Part shown: positions 1 through 6,000 of the stretch, piece after piece
How positions within the stretch are numbered: the first letter of the stretch is position 1
Layout: each line of letters begins with the position of its first letter
Position numbers: made by a program
Origin: Perna viridis
Lineage: Eukaryota
Length of the DNA stretch: 64,000 nucleotides
NCBI GenBank assembly: GCA_037379345.1
Contig: CM074511.1
Location: 12,834,001 to 12,898,000 of the forward strand
Direction: 5' to 3'

Positions 1-3000
1 ATTTAAATCAAAGTTCTACACACCGTAATATAATGCAGCTTCTCGCCTTTCAGCGTCGGCCACTACCAATTTTCTACGTCACAGAAAAGGCAGGAAGTAG
101 TGAATTTCTGTCATATTTGTTAGATTGCCGAACAAATAGTGCCCATGCTTTAAACAAACAACAACAACTGAAATATACTTTAGATATTATAAACGCCGTC
201 TCATTTCTCCACGATAAGAAAATTATTCATAGAAATATCACGTGTTCTGCCTTCAGTGTCCGTCTAAATAGTCAAACTTTGTTCCTCCACGATTTTAGCA
301 TTGCAACTCGTGTACTAAGAGAAAATGGAATTATATCAGGTAGGTCTATAACTCCATTTGCCAATCTAAAACTAAACTAAATTCTCGTATTGTGAATTTA
401 ACTTTAGGTGGATGCAAACATTTCACTTATCCAATATGAATTCTTTACCCTGAATATTATGCATTCTATAACAAGGATATGTTCAACACGTATTGGATAT
501 TCATTATTCTAATTCCAACTCATAGCACACTCAAATATCGCAACGTATAACAAATTAATGCAGATAGAAGCATGTATTAGTGGATAAGATAATGTTGTAA
601 AATCTACTTAGATAAAATTTAAAGTAGGACCCATTATGACATCGATACACTTCAGATTTGGAAGATATTATGATACCTGTTTTGTGGTCAGCCCCAGTCA
701 GCATATTGGAAGATAGATATGACAAGAAGACGGACGCATGGATGCTGGGAAATGTCATTTATGAGCTCTTCACTTATGGCTGTCATCCATACACTGAAGT
801 ATACAACACACCAACAGAACAAATTCTTGAATATGTGAGTGTCGGTATACAATAAAGGGCAATTACAATTAGGAAAATTACTTAAAGAAGAAAGGCAAGA
901 TGTATAACTGAACTACAATATTGGAAAATAGAAATTGTATGAAGCATCTAAAATTCATCATTTAACACACAAAATATTAAGTGTAAAAAAATCGATTTAT
1001 TTGGTTATTCACTCTTTCCAGTTAATTATCCTATTAGTAATGAATGTTCACTTAATTTACATTATTTTTTTTACAGTAAAATGATTTCTATATTACGAAT
1101 ATGTGCACCTCATTAAGTTGATTTTCTGCAGATCCTCTTCAGCGATCTGAAACTACACAAATGGCCCTGTATACCGACAGAAGTTCATGCAGTTATACTA
1201 GGACTCACAAAATCCAATCCATCTGAAAGATTAGACATCAGTGCTGCCAAGACAAAACTATCATTAATGCTCCAGTTTGAAGACGAAAGTAATCAAGGTA
1301 AAGGCAACGGTTACAAGGGGTAATCAAATTAATATAATGCAGGGCAAATTTTCTCAATGAGTCAGAGAAAACAGGGCAAAAACTAAAAACACAATAGCTA
1401 ACGAGACTACAAAAACACATTTTAGTCATCATGAACTCGTGGATCGTTATGATGTATCCATCAGCACCATGAAAACTGATTTATTCAAAGGGTCATAGTT
1501 TTCCTTTCCTCGTTTGCCTACCCCGGACTTGGTGGGTGTTTCTAGAAAAGCAGAGGACGCTTACCCTACCGGTGCACCTGGTCCATGCTCCCAGTTTTTA
1601 GTGGAGTCCGAGTTGCTCATTTACTTTTGTTACTTTGTATGAATGATTTTAGTTACTTTATGTTCTTTGTTGTGTATGTCTGTTTTCCATGTCTGGTCTT
1701 TGTCCCTGGATTACATTCTTTTGATTACCGCTATAACCTTGGTTCCCTTGATTACTCTTTAAGCTAGGTCTTGGTGTCCTTGATTATATGTTTAGTGCAG
1801 CCTGATTGTTCTTAACTCTGGTGAAACCACCTAGTGTTGACGAAAAAAACATCATGAGACGTTTGAATCATATTGTGTGTTGTTTATTTTTTTTTAATAT
1901 AAAATTGATTTTTCATATTTCTTAAAGATAAAAATTCTGATTATACTATTGATGCCGTCCCAACGCAAGATCTCCCGCGGTTAGATGTGAATCAAAGGTT
2001 ACCAGAAACGGTAAGAATATGGTAAAACATAAGGTATGTACTGATACCTAAATATTTTGTATCTTTCTTGTCGGCGATCTCCCAATTCATTTTCTCAAAG
2101 GCAAATAAAACAATAAACAATTTCGTAGCATTGTTAAAAACGTGTCCAAGTCTTCCTAATCAAGTGCCAATACCAGATGCCAAATACCAATGTTTCATAA
2201 AAACATCAATAATAGTTAACTATAATTTTGCATTTTTTAGGAAATACCATACCTCATTCAGCAAATAAAGTGTTACCATGGACGATCAATAAGTGAGTAG
2301 CACTGCTTTCTAATGCTAGTTAAAGGAAGTTGTATTGTACCAGGTGATATGTATTCAATTTCTTGCCCACAAGATTACGACAATGTTCCATTGAAGGCAA
2401 TTAGGAGTATCGAAATTCTCACCAGAATGAAACAAAAGCAACATTAACAAAAAAATAAACTTGCGATCGATTGAGCATAAAACGTGATAGCGAACAGTTT
2501 TGACAATTTATAACAAGATGGAATTAGAGGATGTGAAAACAATTAGTACCGTAAATGCTATATATGTATATTTGAACTTTTTTGTCTTTTTTACACATTA
2601 TCTTTAATTTAAGCCAAACATATAACGTAACTATGATATCAGTCGATAAAGAACATACATAACATAGGCTTAAATACCGTTTTCTTGCAACCGTGATTTA
2701 CCATGGTTTCTTCTACTTAGTGAATGTTTTATACGTTGCGTATTTTAAATCAAATAATGTGCTATTTGCATCTAATATACCGACTTTCTGAAAGCATTAA
2801 AAGTTTCGTCTTTAAATGGTATGTAGGTTCTGCCAAACATGTTTATCTGAATACACGTCTGAGTCAGAGAATACAACGAAGAAGTCTAGCAATAACCCCT
2901 GTTGATGTTATACCACAGGATAAACCTAGGATTGTTAAAAGGGTAAAGCGTGTTTAAGGTGGCTTATGTTTGATTAAAAATGCACGTTTTTTTTTTGTAT

Positions 3001-6000
3001 AAATACAGCTTTACGGCTTCTTTTATTCTAATAACATATGCTTGAGTGCAATTCAATAAAACTTAAGTTTCTGAATCATTTTGTATATTTTGAACGATCG
3101 TGCGCATGATAGCAACTCTGATTAAATTATGATGTCGAATTCGCCAAAAATGAAAAATCAACCAAACGCGAAAGACAAAATATGTCATAAGCATGCCAGC
3201 GGTTATGTATAAAATGAAAAATAGACTTAAAAATTCAATGGTTTGGAGGGCATTTTGCACTTAGCGTTTTATTGTTCCATTTCAGTTCGGTTTCCTGGAC
3301 ATTCGGGAAGCAGTTACGCTGAAGTTTTTACGATTCCTTCCGAGTATTGACGACGAAGAAGTTTTCCGTGATCTGCTGTGTCTGTTAAATTCGCCACAGA
3401 AACACGTCGTCCAAGCAAGGCAGAAACTATCAGAGAATATGTTCCCTTTTTATTTAGTAAGTGATATATTAAAAATCTTGTATAATAAACACACAGTGAG
3501 CTATACAAATGTGTAGTCGAATTATAATGTATAAAAGTTTAACTTTTGTAAGATATTAGTGTAATAGAATCTGCATGGCACATTGTGAAAAATGTTTGTC
3601 CACGACAACAAAGGACATATTCAATCTAATACATTGTCGTTATTTTTGTAGAAATACAGATGTGTTAGGGGTACAAGTATTCTAGATTTAGCGTTCACTA
3701 ATGTGTTCGGTGACCCAACAATGGAGGGATACAAGTATATGCAGATAGTTCTCAAGGTTGTCTGTTTTGTCCAAGAAGTTCATAGAAGACGTATTATTCT
3801 GGGAGATATTTGCGCTGAACATATTTACATATCAGAAGATTATGAAAAGGTGAATACTTCTTATATAAACCTACATGTATATAGGTGATTATTTTGGCAC
3901 AGTAAGTCTGTTTTGTTTGAATTCATTTGCTCAGTACATACATGTAACTGTCTCATAAAATTTAAAAGCTACATACGGAAAAAGGCAAAAGGCGTATCTT
4001 CTTGTCATAAACCATGATTAACTTATGCACTTGGTTGGGCATAGAAGTATTTCTTTAATCAAATGTTATATACTAAACCCTTCTGTTCCCTACATGTATT
4101 CCTAACGATTGCAGCTATAGTTTATATAAAAACGAAAGTATCTTTTTATTTGTAAAGGTATATATGCCAAGATTAGGTCGAATGTTGTACTATGAAGACC
4201 GAACCCAAGAGTGTCTGTCGGGGCCCATGTATTCTGATAGAAAACGTTGGTAAGATTTAATAATAATTTGTCATTCTGTTGTGTTAATATAGACTTATTA
4301 ACATTTACATTTAAAGGACTTATTTTCTGAGGTGCTTATAATATTTCTCTATATTAGTGTTGTTCGAGAGAGCTGTGTTGTGAAACAGGGACCTTTTGTG
4401 AAATAAGTGATATACAAAGGAATCACAGTCGAATTACAGCAATCGAAATTAATGCATTCAAAAACTAGTGGTGTAAATGACACTAGGCAAAAAGTAACAC
4501 AAACCTTTACATTTACGTTCACGTAAGAAAACATTAAGGAACAAAAAGGAAGCAGTTTTATCAGGAGCAGCGGAGGAGCAACGATCAAACTCTTATTGAA
4601 AAAAAATCTTTTTACTTGGCCTTGGCTTTGTTATTGAAACGTGTATTCTTGTCATATGAACTAGGGAAACTCTATATTTCAACAAAACTAGACAGTTTTT
4701 TGTTATATTCTTACCACAACTAGTAAGAGTGTTGATTTTGTTGGATATTCCAGTTTTGATGATTTCTACCATTTTTAGGACTCCTATAGAGGTTTTACAA
4801 CACGGGCAATATTCATTTGAAAGTGATATCTATCGGCTGGGTATGACGGTATATGAGTTCTTTACTGCACTGGATATATACAGGAGCGATCCAATGGCTG
4901 ATCAACTGAGCTGTGCACCTTTTGCTCATATAGCTCATAAAGATGTAAGTCTGTTATAATACGAATGGTTTATTGAAAGATTTGCTCAACTTCACACTTT
5001 CATCTAAACGATCGGGAATAATTGGTTTAAATAAGACTGCTAGAAGCCAGTGTTCTTTTCTAAAACATTTATTAAGTTGCCACCTTGTTTGCCAACCTTT
5101 ACCCAACCGTAACGCAGCGATAAAATTCCAGAAATGAGTTCAATATGTGTTTATTTGATATGTTATTTTTCCTTGTTTTTTATTCAGTAAAGGTTATCTA
5201 CATTACATTGTTTTAGCTACTTAGTGTTTTATACAACGGTTCTGTGCCACCAAGACCTAAACTTTGCCCTGATTGGTTATACATGGTTCTATTAAAATGC
5301 TGGGACCGAGACAGAACGCGAAGACCGTCAGCTTTATGGATTGAAGAGGTTATAAAGAGACAGCTCGGGTAAATTGACAGAAAAAACTTTAAATGACAAG
5401 CAACATGTTCTTATTTCAGAATACATGTGTCAAATGTGACCTGGAACTTTATTTTTATATATCGACTTCGATTAATATGAATAGTTTTCCTAAAAGTACT
5501 TCAAATTATATCTGGACTTCGTCGAGCTCGTAAAGCTCAGTAAATGGAAAAAGAGGAAAGTTTTCGATTTCCTAAAACAGGTTTTGTAATACTAAAGTTG
5601 GTTTACAGTTACAACATGCGTGAAAGTATACATCAGAAAAAAAAAAATCGGTTGCAGATTTAACACGAACCTGGTGTGCTGTTCGGGGAGTCAGTAAGGA
5701 GTTTAGTCACAAAGTAATATTTTTAAGGTCTTGTTATGTGTTTGTTAGTTTCCAAAACGGTGCTACTTCTATCTGATTAATAATTGAATTGAATCTCTGG
5801 AAGTCGTTGTCTGAGCTGTTACGTCCTTTCCATTTATTTTCTTGATACCTGTTAATTGAGTTATTAATGATGGATTTCCATTCACATTTCGATGTTGGAA
5901 AGACCGGTCAGTAAAAAGCTTTGAGATATCCATGAAGTTTATATGTTAATAATACTTTAAAAAAACGTCGGAAATAAAACCATGGTTGCTACGTTTTGTA

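What the first reader, a model, noticed from the sequence alone, without database searches (positions are those of the whole stretch)
3..5368. Intact multi-exon gene with two tandem tyrosine-kinase-like domains, both apparently catalytically dead
Seen: 12 phase-consistent exons with no stops. In domain 1, HRD is HRN (the catalytic Asp is lost), DFG is DFS and APE is APV. In domain 2, HRDxxxxN is LGDICAEH, DFG is RLG and no Gly-rich loop is visible, yet VTLK, WTPIE, SDIYRLG and CW..D...RP are kept. Known: JAKs pair one pseudokinase with an active kinase; double-pseudokinase layouts are rare. Inference: a scaffold or decoy kinase family. Upstream exons lie outside the window and could hold an active domain.
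Basis: partly seen in the sequence, partly recalled or inferred. Interest (0 to 1): 0.65.

Follow-up and report, generated by a model that had tools for sequence, protein, structure and literature searches.

The report
Bivalve tandem double-pseudokinase gene
This is a real, intact mollusc gene whose protein carries two tyrosine-kinase-like domains in a row that have both lost residues needed for catalysis, a layout that selection has kept in mussels and scallops and that nobody seems to have studied.

Summary
Window 3-5368 (+) carries 11 (not 12) phase-consistent AG/GT exons. A 12th exon (6592-7306) completes the gene, and the TAA at 5370 is intronic.

The exons map colinearly onto annotated, uncharacterised 1,450-1,640-aa proteins of mussels and scallops. 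The closest is Mytilus trossulus LOC134721119, at 42-81% identity per exon.

Both tyrosine-kinase-like domains are degenerate across that family:
- Domain 1: catalytic-loop Asn in 0 of 41 rows, DFG in 1 of 41.
- Domain 2: DFG Asp in 0 of 20 rows.

The two domains are nevertheless the best-conserved parts of orthologue pairs: 82-96% against 54-78% in the tail. The window copy keeps 74 of 78 family-conserved positions. Homologues have no third kinase domain upstream.

This is an old, selected tandem pseudokinase, most likely a non-catalytic scaffold, and not a pseudogene. Function, expression, fold and nucleotide binding are untested, and the structure jobs failed. Ten paper searches found nothing on the family. 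The joined spliced protein was not built; all window searches were exon by exon.

The parts
3..339 (+). Exon 1, open at the window's 5' end. It encodes pseudokinase domain 1 from the alphaC-beta4 region through the catalytic loop (HRN 228-236) and DFS (291-299).
   Evidence: Pfam PK_Tyr_Ser-Thr E 2.1e-9, profile positions 58-152. Donor GTAGGT. The database ORF P0001 is 100% identical and runs 141 residues further upstream of the window. Maps to P0158 636-736 at 56% identity.
656..834 (+). Exon 2: domain 1 from the APE region (WSAPV, 685-699) to alphaF/alphaG.
   Evidence: Pfam PK_Tyr_Ser-Thr E 2.3e-9, profile positions 165-215. 81% identical to P0158 744-801. All 60 PDB hits shown are tyrosine kinases.
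1132..1297 (+). Exon 3: the C-terminal helices of domain 1.
   Evidence: AG/GT boundaries. 62% identical to P0158 802-856, contiguous with exon 2. No Pfam hit on its own.
1928..2010 (+). Exon 4: inter-domain linker.
   Evidence: AG/GT boundaries, phase 1 in. P0158 864-883, E 4e-4.
2241..2292 (+). Exon 5: inter-domain linker (17 codons plus 1 base).
   Evidence: AG/GT boundaries. P0158 885-900 and P0159 1100-1115, E 1e-4. Too short for the Pfam tool.
2827..2942 (+). Exon 6: end of the linker and start of domain 2. It holds the conserved Y.N.R and D.P positions.
   Evidence: 66% identical to P0158 909-943. Family-invariant Y452, N454, D477 and P479 are kept.
3286..3456 (+). Exon 7: N-lobe of domain 2, with EAVTLK (VTLK 3313-3324). 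No Gly-rich loop.
   Evidence: 60% identical to P0158 944-999. Profile-profile alignment puts VTLK on VAIK, at low confidence. No Pfam kinase hit alone.
3652..3849 (+). Exon 8: domain 2 from the hinge to the catalytic loop, LGDICAEH at 3799-3822.
   Evidence: 42% identical to P0158 1000-1066. ILGDLCAEN aligns with IHRDLAARN of canonical kinases. No Pfam or PDB kinase hit alone.
4158..4249 (+). Exon 9: RLG (4170-4178) in place of DFG, plus the activation segment. It ends on the first two bases of the W codon.
   Evidence: PRLGR is invariant at R, G and R in 19 of 19 family rows. P0158 1070-1101. DFS of domain 1 aligns with RIG of domain 2.
4779..4944 (+). Exon 10: domain 2, (W)TPIE and SDIYRLG, alphaEF-alphaF.
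   Evidence: Pfam PK_Tyr_Ser-Thr E 5.6e-4, 19.7 bits, below the 23.1 cut-off; profile positions 172-200. 76% identical to P0158 1104-1153. PDB hits include EGFR and B-Raf.
5217..5368 (+). Exon 11: end of domain 2, with CWDRDRTRRP at 5298-5327. Donor GG|GTAAAT; the TAA at 5370-5372 is intronic.
   Evidence: Pfam PK_Tyr_Ser-Thr E 1.3e-5, profile positions 215-254. 40 of 51 residues identical to P0158 1158-1208.
6592..7306 (+).
   Evidence: Acceptor TTTTATACTTTAG|T is in phase with the 5368 donor. The exon starts at P0158 residue 1209, directly after exon 11's 1208: 14 of 21 identical, E 6e-6. It lies in a 252-aa ORF with P(no stop) 2.4e-9. It is 69% polar, like the tails of homologues at 69-75%.

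Best explanation
The window holds the last 808 codons (12 exons, + strand, 3-7306) of a protein-coding gene. The gene belongs to a family so far seen by name only in pteriomorph bivalves: mussels, scallops and an ark clam. Annotated relatives are 1,450-1,640 aa long.

The part encoded here is:
- two consecutive tyrosine-kinase-derived domains;
- a linker of about 70-100 residues;
- a polar tail of about 240 residues.

Each domain has lost a different set of catalytic residues.
- Domain 1 lacks the Gly-rich loop and the beta3 Lys (both seen in the ORF that continues upstream). It also lacks the HRD Asp (HRN), the catalytic-loop Asn and the DFG Gly (DFS).
- Domain 2 lacks the Gly-rich loop, the H and R of HRD (LGD), the Asn (His here) and the DFG Asp (RLG).

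These losses are family-wide and old, yet the two domains are the best-conserved parts of the proteins. The gene is therefore functional. It most likely works without phosphotransfer, as a folded docking or allosteric module (scaffold). Its kinase-like C-lobes, its tail and, in the full protein, an N-terminal Cys/His domain plus a helical region would bind partners.

Shown: gene structure, homology, motif states and the conservation pattern. Inferred: absence of catalysis and the scaffold role. My confidence that this is a real, selected double-pseudokinase gene is about 0.9. My confidence that it acts purely as a non-catalytic scaffold is about 0.6.
For: - Gene model: all AG/GT boundaries, continuous phase, 2427 nt = 808 codons plus a stop.
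- Twelve exons map in order and contiguously on Mytilus trossulus LOC134721119 (P0158), residues 636 to 1209 and beyond. They also map on P0006 residues 180-740.
- Kinase homology: Pfam hits for exons 1, 2, 10 and 11. All 60 best PDB hits shown for the family profile are tyrosine kinases.
- Domain 1 and domain 2 profiles align at probability 99.3%, E 1.2e-19. Each aligns better to canonical kinases, at E 7.6e-40 and 1.7e-25.
- Domain 1 motif states, 41 family rows: HRN 26, HRD 12, HRG 2, HCD 1. Catalytic Asn 0 of 41. DFG 1 of 41. Beta3 Lys 4 of 39.
- Domain 2 motif states, 20 rows: DFG Asp 0 of 20 (R[LIV]G 19, RLS 1). HRD 0 of 20.
- Constraint: in 5 orthologue pairs PK1 is 87-95% and PK2 82-96% identical, against 54-78% for the tail.
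- The window keeps 74 of 78 columns that are at least 90% conserved in 19 family rows.
- Placement: the window ORF sits in a clade of 6 with P0158, P0159 and P0002-4, support 100/100.
- There is no third kinase domain or other Pfam domain in 11 family proteins.
Against: - There is no expression evidence. The only database record of this very sequence (P0001) is an unspliced genomic ORF.
- No assay, fold or binding result exists.
- dN/dS was not computable.
- Domain 2 of this subfamily keeps a Lys at the position aligned to VAIK (low-confidence alignment) and the catalytic-loop Asp.
- Human EphB6, also RLG, still binds nucleotide (PMC8347583, passages). 'Dead' may therefore mean 'no transfer' rather than 'no ligand'.
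- 12 of 41 family rows keep HRD in domain 1, and one (P0011) keeps DFG. The ark-clam protein P0163 keeps HRD in domain 2.
- The window copy alone changes four family-conserved positions. These include the APE Glu (E to V), invariant in 19 of 19 rows, and the Pro of EPVT. This could mean some relaxation in this lineage.
- The N-terminal roughly 635 residues of this particular gene lie outside the window and were not seen.
Confidence: 0.7

Rival explanations
1. Nucleotide-gated switch or atypical enzyme. One domain, most likely domain 2, still binds ATP or another nucleotide. It would use binding as a conformational switch, or catalyse a slow or unusual reaction without the usual metal ligands.
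For: Domain 2 in the window and in P0158/P0159 keeps the catalytic-loop Asp (LGD) and a Lys aligned to VAIK. 9 of 20 family rows keep the catalytic-loop Asn in domain 2. Human EphB6 has RLG instead of DFG and still binds nucleotide (PMC8347583, passages). That CASK works without the metal-binding Asn and Asp is recalled, not checked here.
Against: No Gly-rich loop is present in either domain. The Lys is not conserved outside the subfamily: the wider family has D, P, R, A, K or G at that position. The DFG Asp is absent in 0 of 20 rows. The window copy also lacks the Asn (His). The N-lobe alignment has low confidence.
Confidence: 0.17
2. Immune decoy or sensor. As proposed for plant tandem kinase-pseudokinase proteins, the dead kinase domains would mimic real kinases targeted by pathogen effectors, and the protein would report the attack.
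For: The layout is a tandem kinase-like one in a cytoplasmic protein. There are several paralogues per mussel genome on one chromosome-sized contig: three M. trossulus loci on the 91.4-Mb contig and two M. californianus loci on the 122-Mb contig. The decoy idea for plant TKPs and their comparison with JAKs are in PMC6170490 (passages). A weak Atlas lead likens the homologues' N-terminal domain to TIR domains, at scores 0.78-0.83.
Against: No expression or infection data exist. High conservation of both domains between species is not what fast-evolving decoys usually show. The TIR lead failed both sequence tests: 13 PDB hits, all E 0.089 or higher, none a TIR; and 0 of 7 members hit a TIR Pfam family at E up to 10. 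The Atlas tool states that scores under 0.9 are leads only.
Confidence: 0.08
3. A recent pseudogene or decaying duplicate whose kinase motifs are eroding.
For: Four window-specific changes occur at family-conserved positions, including APE to APV. There is no transcript evidence.
Against: There are twelve open exons with intact splice sites. 74 of 78 conserved positions are kept. The degenerate motifs are shared with Mytilus and scallop proteins across three bivalve orders. LGD and HRN..TCSA are subfamily traits shared with P0158/P0159.
Confidence: 0.03
4. A gene-model artefact: two neighbouring single-domain genes read as one.
For: None beyond the fact that the model is not backed by RNA from this species.
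Against: The linker exons 4-6 are in phase, and all six align in order to P0158 864-943. All 19 aligned family proteins from ten named species and several unnamed clusters have both domains in one chain. There is no stop or start signal between the domains.
Confidence: 0.02

Closest known systems
Mytilus trossulus LOC134721119 (P0158) and the M. coruscus unnamed protein (P0159), both annotated 'uncharacterized' or 'protein kinase domain-containing'
   Same: The architecture and exon-by-exon order are the same. They share HRN.TCSA, DFS, LGD, R[LI]G, VTLK and the tail start DP..DIDH.LF..QLDTEV. They form one clade with the window at 100/100 support.
   Different: Identity is only 42-81% per exon, so this is another species or a deep paralogue. 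The window has APV for APE, EAVT for EPVT, and His for the domain-2 Asn.
Janus kinases (FERM-SH2-JH2 pseudokinase-JH1 kinase)
   Same: Both have two tyrosine-kinase-group domains in tandem with the first one dead. Exon 11's PDB hits include JAK2 JH1.
   Different: The second domain is also dead here. No FERM or SH2 is found in 11 family proteins, whereas a true mussel JAK-like protein (P0165) shows traces of both. The best PDB hits are spread over EGFR, FGFR3, Abl and BTK, not JAK in particular.
Plant tandem kinase-pseudokinase proteins (WTK1/Yr15, RPG1)
   Same: They are cytoplasmic proteins built from two kinase-like domains in tandem, with a decoy or scaffold role proposed (PMC6170490, passages).
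   Different: The 92 plant proteins are described as one putative kinase plus one pseudokinase with no further domain, and derive from plant kinase families. Here both domains are dead and of tyrosine-kinase type, and they are flanked by a long N-terminal region and a tail. The supplementary motif tables of that paper could not be seen.
Mammalian EphB6 receptor pseudokinase
   Same: It is a tyrosine-kinase-group domain with RLG in place of DFG and with the catalytic Asp and Asn lost, yet functional and nucleotide-binding (PMC8347583, passages).
   Different: It is a single domain in a receptor. It keeps the Gly-rich loop, which is absent here. No specific kinship was shown.
PEAK1/PRAG1/PEAK3 pseudokinase scaffolds
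   Same: They are non-catalytic kinase-fold proteins with long disordered regions that act as signalling scaffolds (abstract in the search listing).
   Different: They have one pseudokinase domain with its own dimerisation helices. No sequence relation was tested or seen here.

Membership tests
Protein kinase fold, tyrosine-kinase group (Pfam PF07714) | Significant match of each domain to the PK_Tyr_Ser-Thr profile | tested here: met
   Exons 1, 2 and 11 score above the 23.1-bit cut-off, and exon 10 scores 19.7 bits. Homologues show 2 stretches each, E 1e-32 to 1e-55.
Protein kinase fold, tyrosine-kinase group (Pfam PF07714) | Tyrosine-kinase-type C-lobe motifs (W.APE-like, CW...RP) and nearest solved relatives being tyrosine kinases | tested here: met
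   WSAPV and (W)TPIE, and CWDRDRTRRP. All 60 PDB hits shown for exon 2, for exon 11 and for the family profile are tyrosine kinases.
Active protein kinase | GxGxxG, beta3 Lys, HRD Asp, catalytic Asn and DFG Asp all present | tested here: not met
   Domain 1: WMEVMGSI, VSLI, HRN, Ala for Asn, DFS. Domain 2: no Gly loop, LGD, His for Asn, RLG.
Pseudokinase (sequence definition: at least one of beta3 Lys, HRD Asp, DFG Asp missing) | Loss of a key residue, conserved among relatives | tested here: met
   Domain 1 lacks the Lys and the HRD Asp. Domain 2 lacks the DFG Asp.
Pseudokinase | No phosphotransfer activity | not testable with these tools
   This needs a biochemical assay.
Bivalve LOC134721119-like tandem pseudokinase family | Colinear match over both domains, linker and tail start; family-conserved columns kept; placement inside the clade | tested here: met
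   colinear match; 74 of 78 columns; 100/100 support.
Bivalve LOC134721119-like tandem pseudokinase family | N-terminal Cys/His domain and helical region upstream of domain 1 | tested here: inconclusive
   Only the 141 residues just upstream are known for this gene (P0001). They align with the family's pre-kinase helical stretch. The rest lies outside the window.
Janus kinase | FERM and SH2 domains N-terminal to the kinase pair | tested here: not met
   None in 11 family proteins at E up to 0.01 or up to 1. This was tested on homologues, not on this gene's unseen 5' part.
Janus kinase | Catalytically competent second (JH1) domain | tested here: not met
   LGD..H and RLG in the window. DFG Asp in 0 of 20 family rows.
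Plant tandem kinase-pseudokinase (TKP) | One putatively active kinase domain beside the pseudokinase; no other domains | tested here: not met
   Both domains are degenerate. Homologues carry about 500-640 extra N-terminal residues.
TIR domain (for the N-terminal domain of homologues) | Sequence match to TIR profiles or solved TIR domains | tested here: not met
   0 of 7 members hit a TIR family at E up to 10. The 13 PDB hits are all at E 0.089 or higher and none is a TIR. The only lead is Atlas scores of 0.78-0.83.
TIR domain (for the N-terminal domain of homologues) | Flavodoxin-like TIR fold | not testable with these tools
   The structure job on P0031 (alignment A4) was interrupted.
SUEL/rhamnose-binding lectin (exon 8 motif) | Match to the lectin domain as a whole | tested here: not met
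   No lectin family appears in Pfam at E up to 1. The PDB match covers about 20 residues, and each repeat alone has E 1.2-52.

The most novel reading that the evidence does not exclude
Pteriomorph bivalves own a signalling module with no counterpart in model animals. In it, an N-terminal Cys3His alpha/beta domain (possibly metal-binding, possibly TIR-like) and a helical region are coupled to a pair of dead tyrosine-kinase domains. That pair would act as a nucleotide-gated switch or as an effector decoy in innate immunity. This would make it an animal analogue of the plant tandem-kinase immune receptors.
Probability: 0.1. Interest if true: 0.75.

Novelty: new variant of a known kind. Interest (0 to 1): 0.42.

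Why it matters
- Pseudokinases are known regulators, and tandem kinase layouts are known from JAKs, GCN2 and plant TKPs. In those, one domain is thought to be active.
- PMC6170490 calls the kinase-plus-pseudokinase layout a unique feature of JAKs among animal kinases (passage).
- This family has both tandem tyrosine-kinase-type domains degenerate. It is conserved across three bivalve orders, and the dead domains are the most constrained parts of the protein.
- That makes it a clean natural case for asking what a kinase fold does once catalysis is gone from both partners.
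- It also adds an unstudied, lineage-restricted piece to mollusc signalling. In the annotations seen here the genes are called 'uncharacterized' or carry automatic names such as ABL1 or FES.

Tried and rejected
Structure prediction and complex prediction
- Two structure jobs were accepted and then interrupted with no model returned. One was P0006 with alignment A2. The other was P0031 with alignment A4. The failures were reported. No fold search was therefore run.
- The complex test of domain 1 against domain 2 of P0006 never ran. The queue was full, and one search gave no usable answer. There is no verdict.

Database look-ups
The unnamed representatives P0005-P0153 therefore have no organism, and the family's range outside the ten named species is unknown.
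- The Atlas search on P0009 1-640 gave no usable hit.

Leads tested and not supported
- TIR lead for the N-terminal domain: not supported by PDB or Pfam.
- Lectin-like motif in exon 8: rejected as a domain.
- Second copy of the gene in the window: none found. tblastn of all exons gave only self hits below E 0.1.
- JAK membership: rejected.
- NCBIfam on P0158 and P0013: only sub-threshold bacterial kinase models.
- Multi-kinase proteins P0030, P0035, P0038 and P0052: canonical kinases in arrays, not family members.

Not computable or unused
- dN/dS: no orthologue DNA could be reached.

Literature
None turned up this family or a double-dead tandem tyrosine-kinase layout in animals.
- Subscription papers, such as the 2019 survey of pseudokinases across life (recalled), were not in the library.

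Full report
SCOPE AND RULES. The window is not human. Its G+C is 28-36% throughout, it has no N, and its only recognisable gene has bivalve relatives. I never built or searched the joined protein. Full-length context comes from database proteins returned by the tools.

GENE MODEL. Reading 1-6000 and listing stop-to-stop frames gives 11 exons on the + strand inside 3-5368. Every acceptor is AG, every donor is GT, and the phase is continuous.

The frame reaches TAA at 5370-5372, but GG|GTAAAT after 5368 is also a donor. A 252-aa ORF lies 1.2 kb downstream at 6548-7306, with a chance of 2.4e-9 of staying open. Its acceptor TTTTATACTTTAG|T at 6591/6592 is in phase with that donor.

Homology settles the choice. 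Exon 11 ends at Gly1208 of the mussel protein P0158 (40 of 51 identical). The candidate exon starts at Asp1209 (DPLTDIDHSLFTRQLDTEV against DPFLDIDHTLFDKQLDTEV, 14 of 21 identical, E 6e-6). The gene therefore has a 12th exon, 6592-7306, ending in TGA, and the window encodes 808 residues.

At the 5' end the frame is open. The database ORF P0001 is 100% identical to exon 1. It continues 141 residues upstream of the window and reads 13 residues into intron 1, so it is an unspliced genomic ORF and not a transcript.

WHAT THE EXONS ENCODE. I scanned 10 exons against Pfam. Exon 5 (17 aa) is too short for the tool and was left out.
- Four exons hit PK_Tyr_Ser-Thr: exon 1 (profile positions 58-152, E 2.1e-9), exon 2 (165-215, E 2.3e-9), exon 10 (172-200, E 5.6e-4, below the curated cut-off) and exon 11 (215-254, E 1.3e-5).
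- Six exons had no kinase hit, including exons 7-9, which should hold the N-lobe, catalytic loop and DFG region of domain 2.
- Exon-wise PDB searches give only tyrosine kinases among the 60 hits shown for exon 2 (Trk, MuSK, Fes, Abl, EGFR) and for exon 11 (JAK2, PYK2, DDR2, HCK, EphA2).
- Exon 10 hits EGFR and B-Raf weakly. Exon 8 hits no kinase.

RELATIVES. A word-based search with exon 1 found 4 proteins among 119 candidates: P0001 and three unnamed genomic ORFs at 55-57% identity. A profile of these four was run against 1.84 billion representatives. It found 663 proteins at E up to 1e-3, 56 at up to 1e-10 and 12 at up to 1e-30. Long hits have the same layout.

Names came from two further searches. 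The family proteins are 'uncharacterized' or automatically named 'ABL1' or 'FES'. They come from Mytilus californianus, M. coruscus, M. galloprovincialis, M. trossulus, M. edulis, Ylistrum balloti, Pecten maximus, Argopecten irradians and Mizuhopecten yessoensis. A partial one comes from Tegillarca granosa. These species span three orders of Pteriomorphia.

Each window exon aligns in order on P0006 180-740. The fit is better on P0158:
- ex1 636-736 (56%), ex2 744-801 (81%), ex3 802-856 (62%)
- ex4 864-883, ex5 885-900, ex6 909-943 (66%)
- ex7 944-999 (60%), ex8 1000-1066 (42%), ex9 1070-1101 (50%)
- ex10 1104-1153 (76%), ex11 1158-1208 (78%)

In a tree of 41 family sequences over the region of P0001, the window ORF forms a clade of six with P0158, P0159 and P0002-4, at support 100/100 (earlier trees). 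I left out P0030 and P0035, which are arrays of canonical kinases, and rows covering fewer than 150 profile positions. There is no second copy in the window.

ARE BOTH DOMAINS DEAD, AND FOR HOW LONG? Profile-profile comparison shows that domain 2 is a full kinase-like domain. Domain 1 against domain 2 gives probability 99.3%, E 1.2e-19, over 267 columns at 16% identity. It pairs HRN with LGD, DFS with RIG, and the domain-1 His with the Lys of VTLK. Against six canonical kinase domains taken from the hit list, ILGDLCAEN pairs with IHRDLAARN, and VTLK pairs with VAIK at low confidence.

Motif states over the family, window rows excluded:
- Domain 1, 41 rows: HRN 26, HRD 12, HRG 2, HCD 1.
- Domain 1: Asn five residues after the HRD position in 0 of 41.
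- Domain 1: DFS 22, DFG 1 (P0011), other 18. Lys at the beta3 position in 4 of 39. No GxGxxG in any row.
- Domain 2, 20 rows: LRD 14, LGD 2, SRD 1, IRD 1, VRC 2. Asn kept in 9 of 20.
- Domain 2: R[LIV]G 19 and RLS 1, so the DFG Asp is absent in all 20.
- The ark-clam fragment P0163, not in that table, has HRD with RIG in domain 2.

LGD and HRN.TCSA are shared with the Mytilus proteins P0158 and P0159. They are traits of the subfamily, not decay of this copy.

Changes private to the window copy, at columns at least 90% conserved in 19 family rows, number four of 78: L214F, L233Q, E303V (APE to APV) and P493A (EPVT to EAVT). The script reported 72 columns kept. R721 was flagged only because a fragment was misplaced, and it is Arg in exon 11. 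W635 is the split codon TG|G. The true count is therefore 74 of 78 kept.

SELECTION. No orthologue DNA was reachable, so dN/dS is missing. As a protein-level proxy I compared five orthologue pairs:
- Domain 1 is 87-95% identical and domain 2 is 82-96% identical.
- The tail is 54-78% identical and the N-terminal domain 53-90%.
- In the scallop pair the figures are 87 and 82 against 54 and 53.

The catalytically degenerate domains are thus the most constrained parts. Between the window and P0158 the best-kept exons are the C-lobe exons 2, 10 and 11 (76-81%). The least-kept is the catalytic-loop exon 8 (42%).

ORIGIN. Each domain resembles canonical tyrosine kinases more than it resembles the other. 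Domain 1 against canonical gives E 7.6e-40 at 26% identity. Domain 2 against canonical gives E 1.7e-25 at 25%. Domain 1 against domain 2, in local mode, gives E 2.4e-15 at 15% (only 6 canonical sequences).

The exon structures also differ. Domain 1 has one long exon plus two short ones, while domain 2 is split over six. The pair is therefore not a recent internal duplication. The family profile's best solved relatives are spread over EGFR, FGFR3, a Src/Abl ancestor, ABL1 and BTK, so no single parent family stands out.

THE UNSEEN 5' PART. In 11 family proteins Pfam finds exactly two kinase stretches and nothing else above threshold. The proteins are P0006, P0009, P0012, P0016, P0020, P0022 and P0014, and P0155, P0158, P0161 and P0162. 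An active third domain upstream is therefore unlikely.

Full-length homologues start with a domain of about 140 residues with alternating strand-like and helix-like segments. Four positions are invariant in 7 of 7 sequences: C19, C25, C71 and H73 in P0158 numbering. Those residues suggest one metal or active site; this is inference. The Atlas lists TIR clusters as look-alikes at 0.78-0.83, which the tool itself calls a lead only. Neither a PDB profile search (13 hits, best E 0.089, no TIR) nor Pfam (0 of 7 members) supports it. A helical region of about 350-450 residues with no known family follows.

HOW IT MOST LIKELY WORKS. Shown so far are a selected gene, two kinase-derived domains, losses of catalytic residues that predate the split of mussels, scallops and ark clams, and strongest constraint on the domains themselves. 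The inference is that the tandem is a non-catalytic module acting by binding. Its C-lobes would serve as docking surfaces, its polar Ser-rich tail (69% polar) as a flexible region for partners or modification, and the N-terminal domains as input or localisation.

The rivals are:
- Nucleotide-gated switch in domain 2. It keeps Lys and Asp, and EphB6 with RLG still binds nucleotide (PMC8347583, passages).
- Immune decoy in the manner proposed for plant tandem kinases (PMC6170490, passages).
- Recent pseudogene.
- Fused gene model.

The last two are contradicted by the data above.

KNOWN COUNTERPARTS AND NOVELTY. The layout works like other pseudokinase scaffolds and resembles JAKs and plant TKPs in form. 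It fails the defining tests of both: no FERM or SH2 and no active JH1, and no active partner domain. That HER3 also reads HRN, and that no human protein has two dead kinase domains in tandem, is recalled and not checked here.

The proteins are already in public annotation as uncharacterised. Ten literature searches found no description of the family. For PMC6170490 and PMC8347583 I read passages. For PMC7586955 a term search found nothing. All others I saw only as search listings. Supplements were closed, so the motif tables of the plant TKP paper, which could show double-dead plant members, were not seen.

I rate the finding a new variant of a known kind, of moderate interest.

NOT OBTAINED. 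No complex prediction ran (queue full or no answer). There are no cluster member names, no expression data and no dN/dS.

SURROUNDINGS.
- No Rfam family and no tRNA in the 64 kb.
- No Pfam family in 15 other ORFs of 89-309 aa.
- Several minisatellites are present.
- A dispersed repeat is shared by intron 3 and 53.7 kb.

Noticed in passing
window 1425-1760 (intron 3) and 53735-54084: A 355-nt stretch of intron 3 is 87.6% identical to the 3' end of a 129-aa ORF at 53419-53808 (+). This looks like a dispersed repeat or transposon fragment. The ORF has no Pfam or PDB match.
   Followed up: partly
window 27264-28500: A minisatellite of 39-nt units in 30.8 copies creates spurious ORFs of up to 577 aa on the minus strand and strong GC skew at 26-30 kb.
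   Followed up: partly
window 30723-31132; 56995-57776; 36465-36917; 32186-32986: Further tandem arrays: 58 nt x 7.1 at 98% identity, 325 nt x 2.4, 33-nt units, and 52/157-nt units.
   Followed up: no
window 42067-42996 (-) and 56269-56802 (+): Two long ORFs (309 aa; 177 aa, acidic and Ser-rich) have no Pfam family. The first also has no PDB match. They may be exons of neighbouring genes.
   Followed up: partly
window 3691-3750 (exon 8): The stretch AFTNVFGDPTMEGYKYMQIV resembles the C-terminal motif of each repeat of a rhamnose-binding lectin (5h4s_A). The whole-chain E is 9e-8, but each repeat alone has E 1.2-52. The F/YGDP...KY pattern is partly kept in the family.
   Followed up: partly
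homologues P0158, P0009, P0012, P0155, P0160, P0162, P0022, residues 1 to about 140: The N-terminal domain has four invariant residues, C19, C25, C71 and H73 (7 of 7). TIR-like Atlas look-alikes score only 0.78-0.83 and are unsupported by PDB or Pfam.
   Followed up: partly
P0159 (Mytilus coruscus), N-terminus: This protein carries a second, extra copy of the N-terminal Cys/His domain ahead of the usual one.
   Followed up: no
P0165 (Mytilus galloprovincialis 'JAK1-like', 1732 aa): A distant hit with FERM and SH2 traces shows three kinase stretches rather than the two of vertebrate JAKs.
   Followed up: no
P0030, P0035, P0038, P0052 (unnamed representatives): These proteins of 1,305-2,911 aa have 4-10 canonical tyrosine-kinase stretches each. 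They are either merged models of tandem gene arrays or true multi-kinase proteins.
   Followed up: no
P0017, P0026, P0028 (unnamed family fragments): This subclade keeps a Lys at the beta3 position, HRD and DF(R) in domain 1. It is the least degenerate form seen, though it still lacks the catalytic Asn and the Gly-rich loop.
   Followed up: no
window 7325-7331: A polyadenylation-like hexamer (AATAAA or ATTAAA) lies 19 nt after the TGA stop of exon 12.
   Followed up: no
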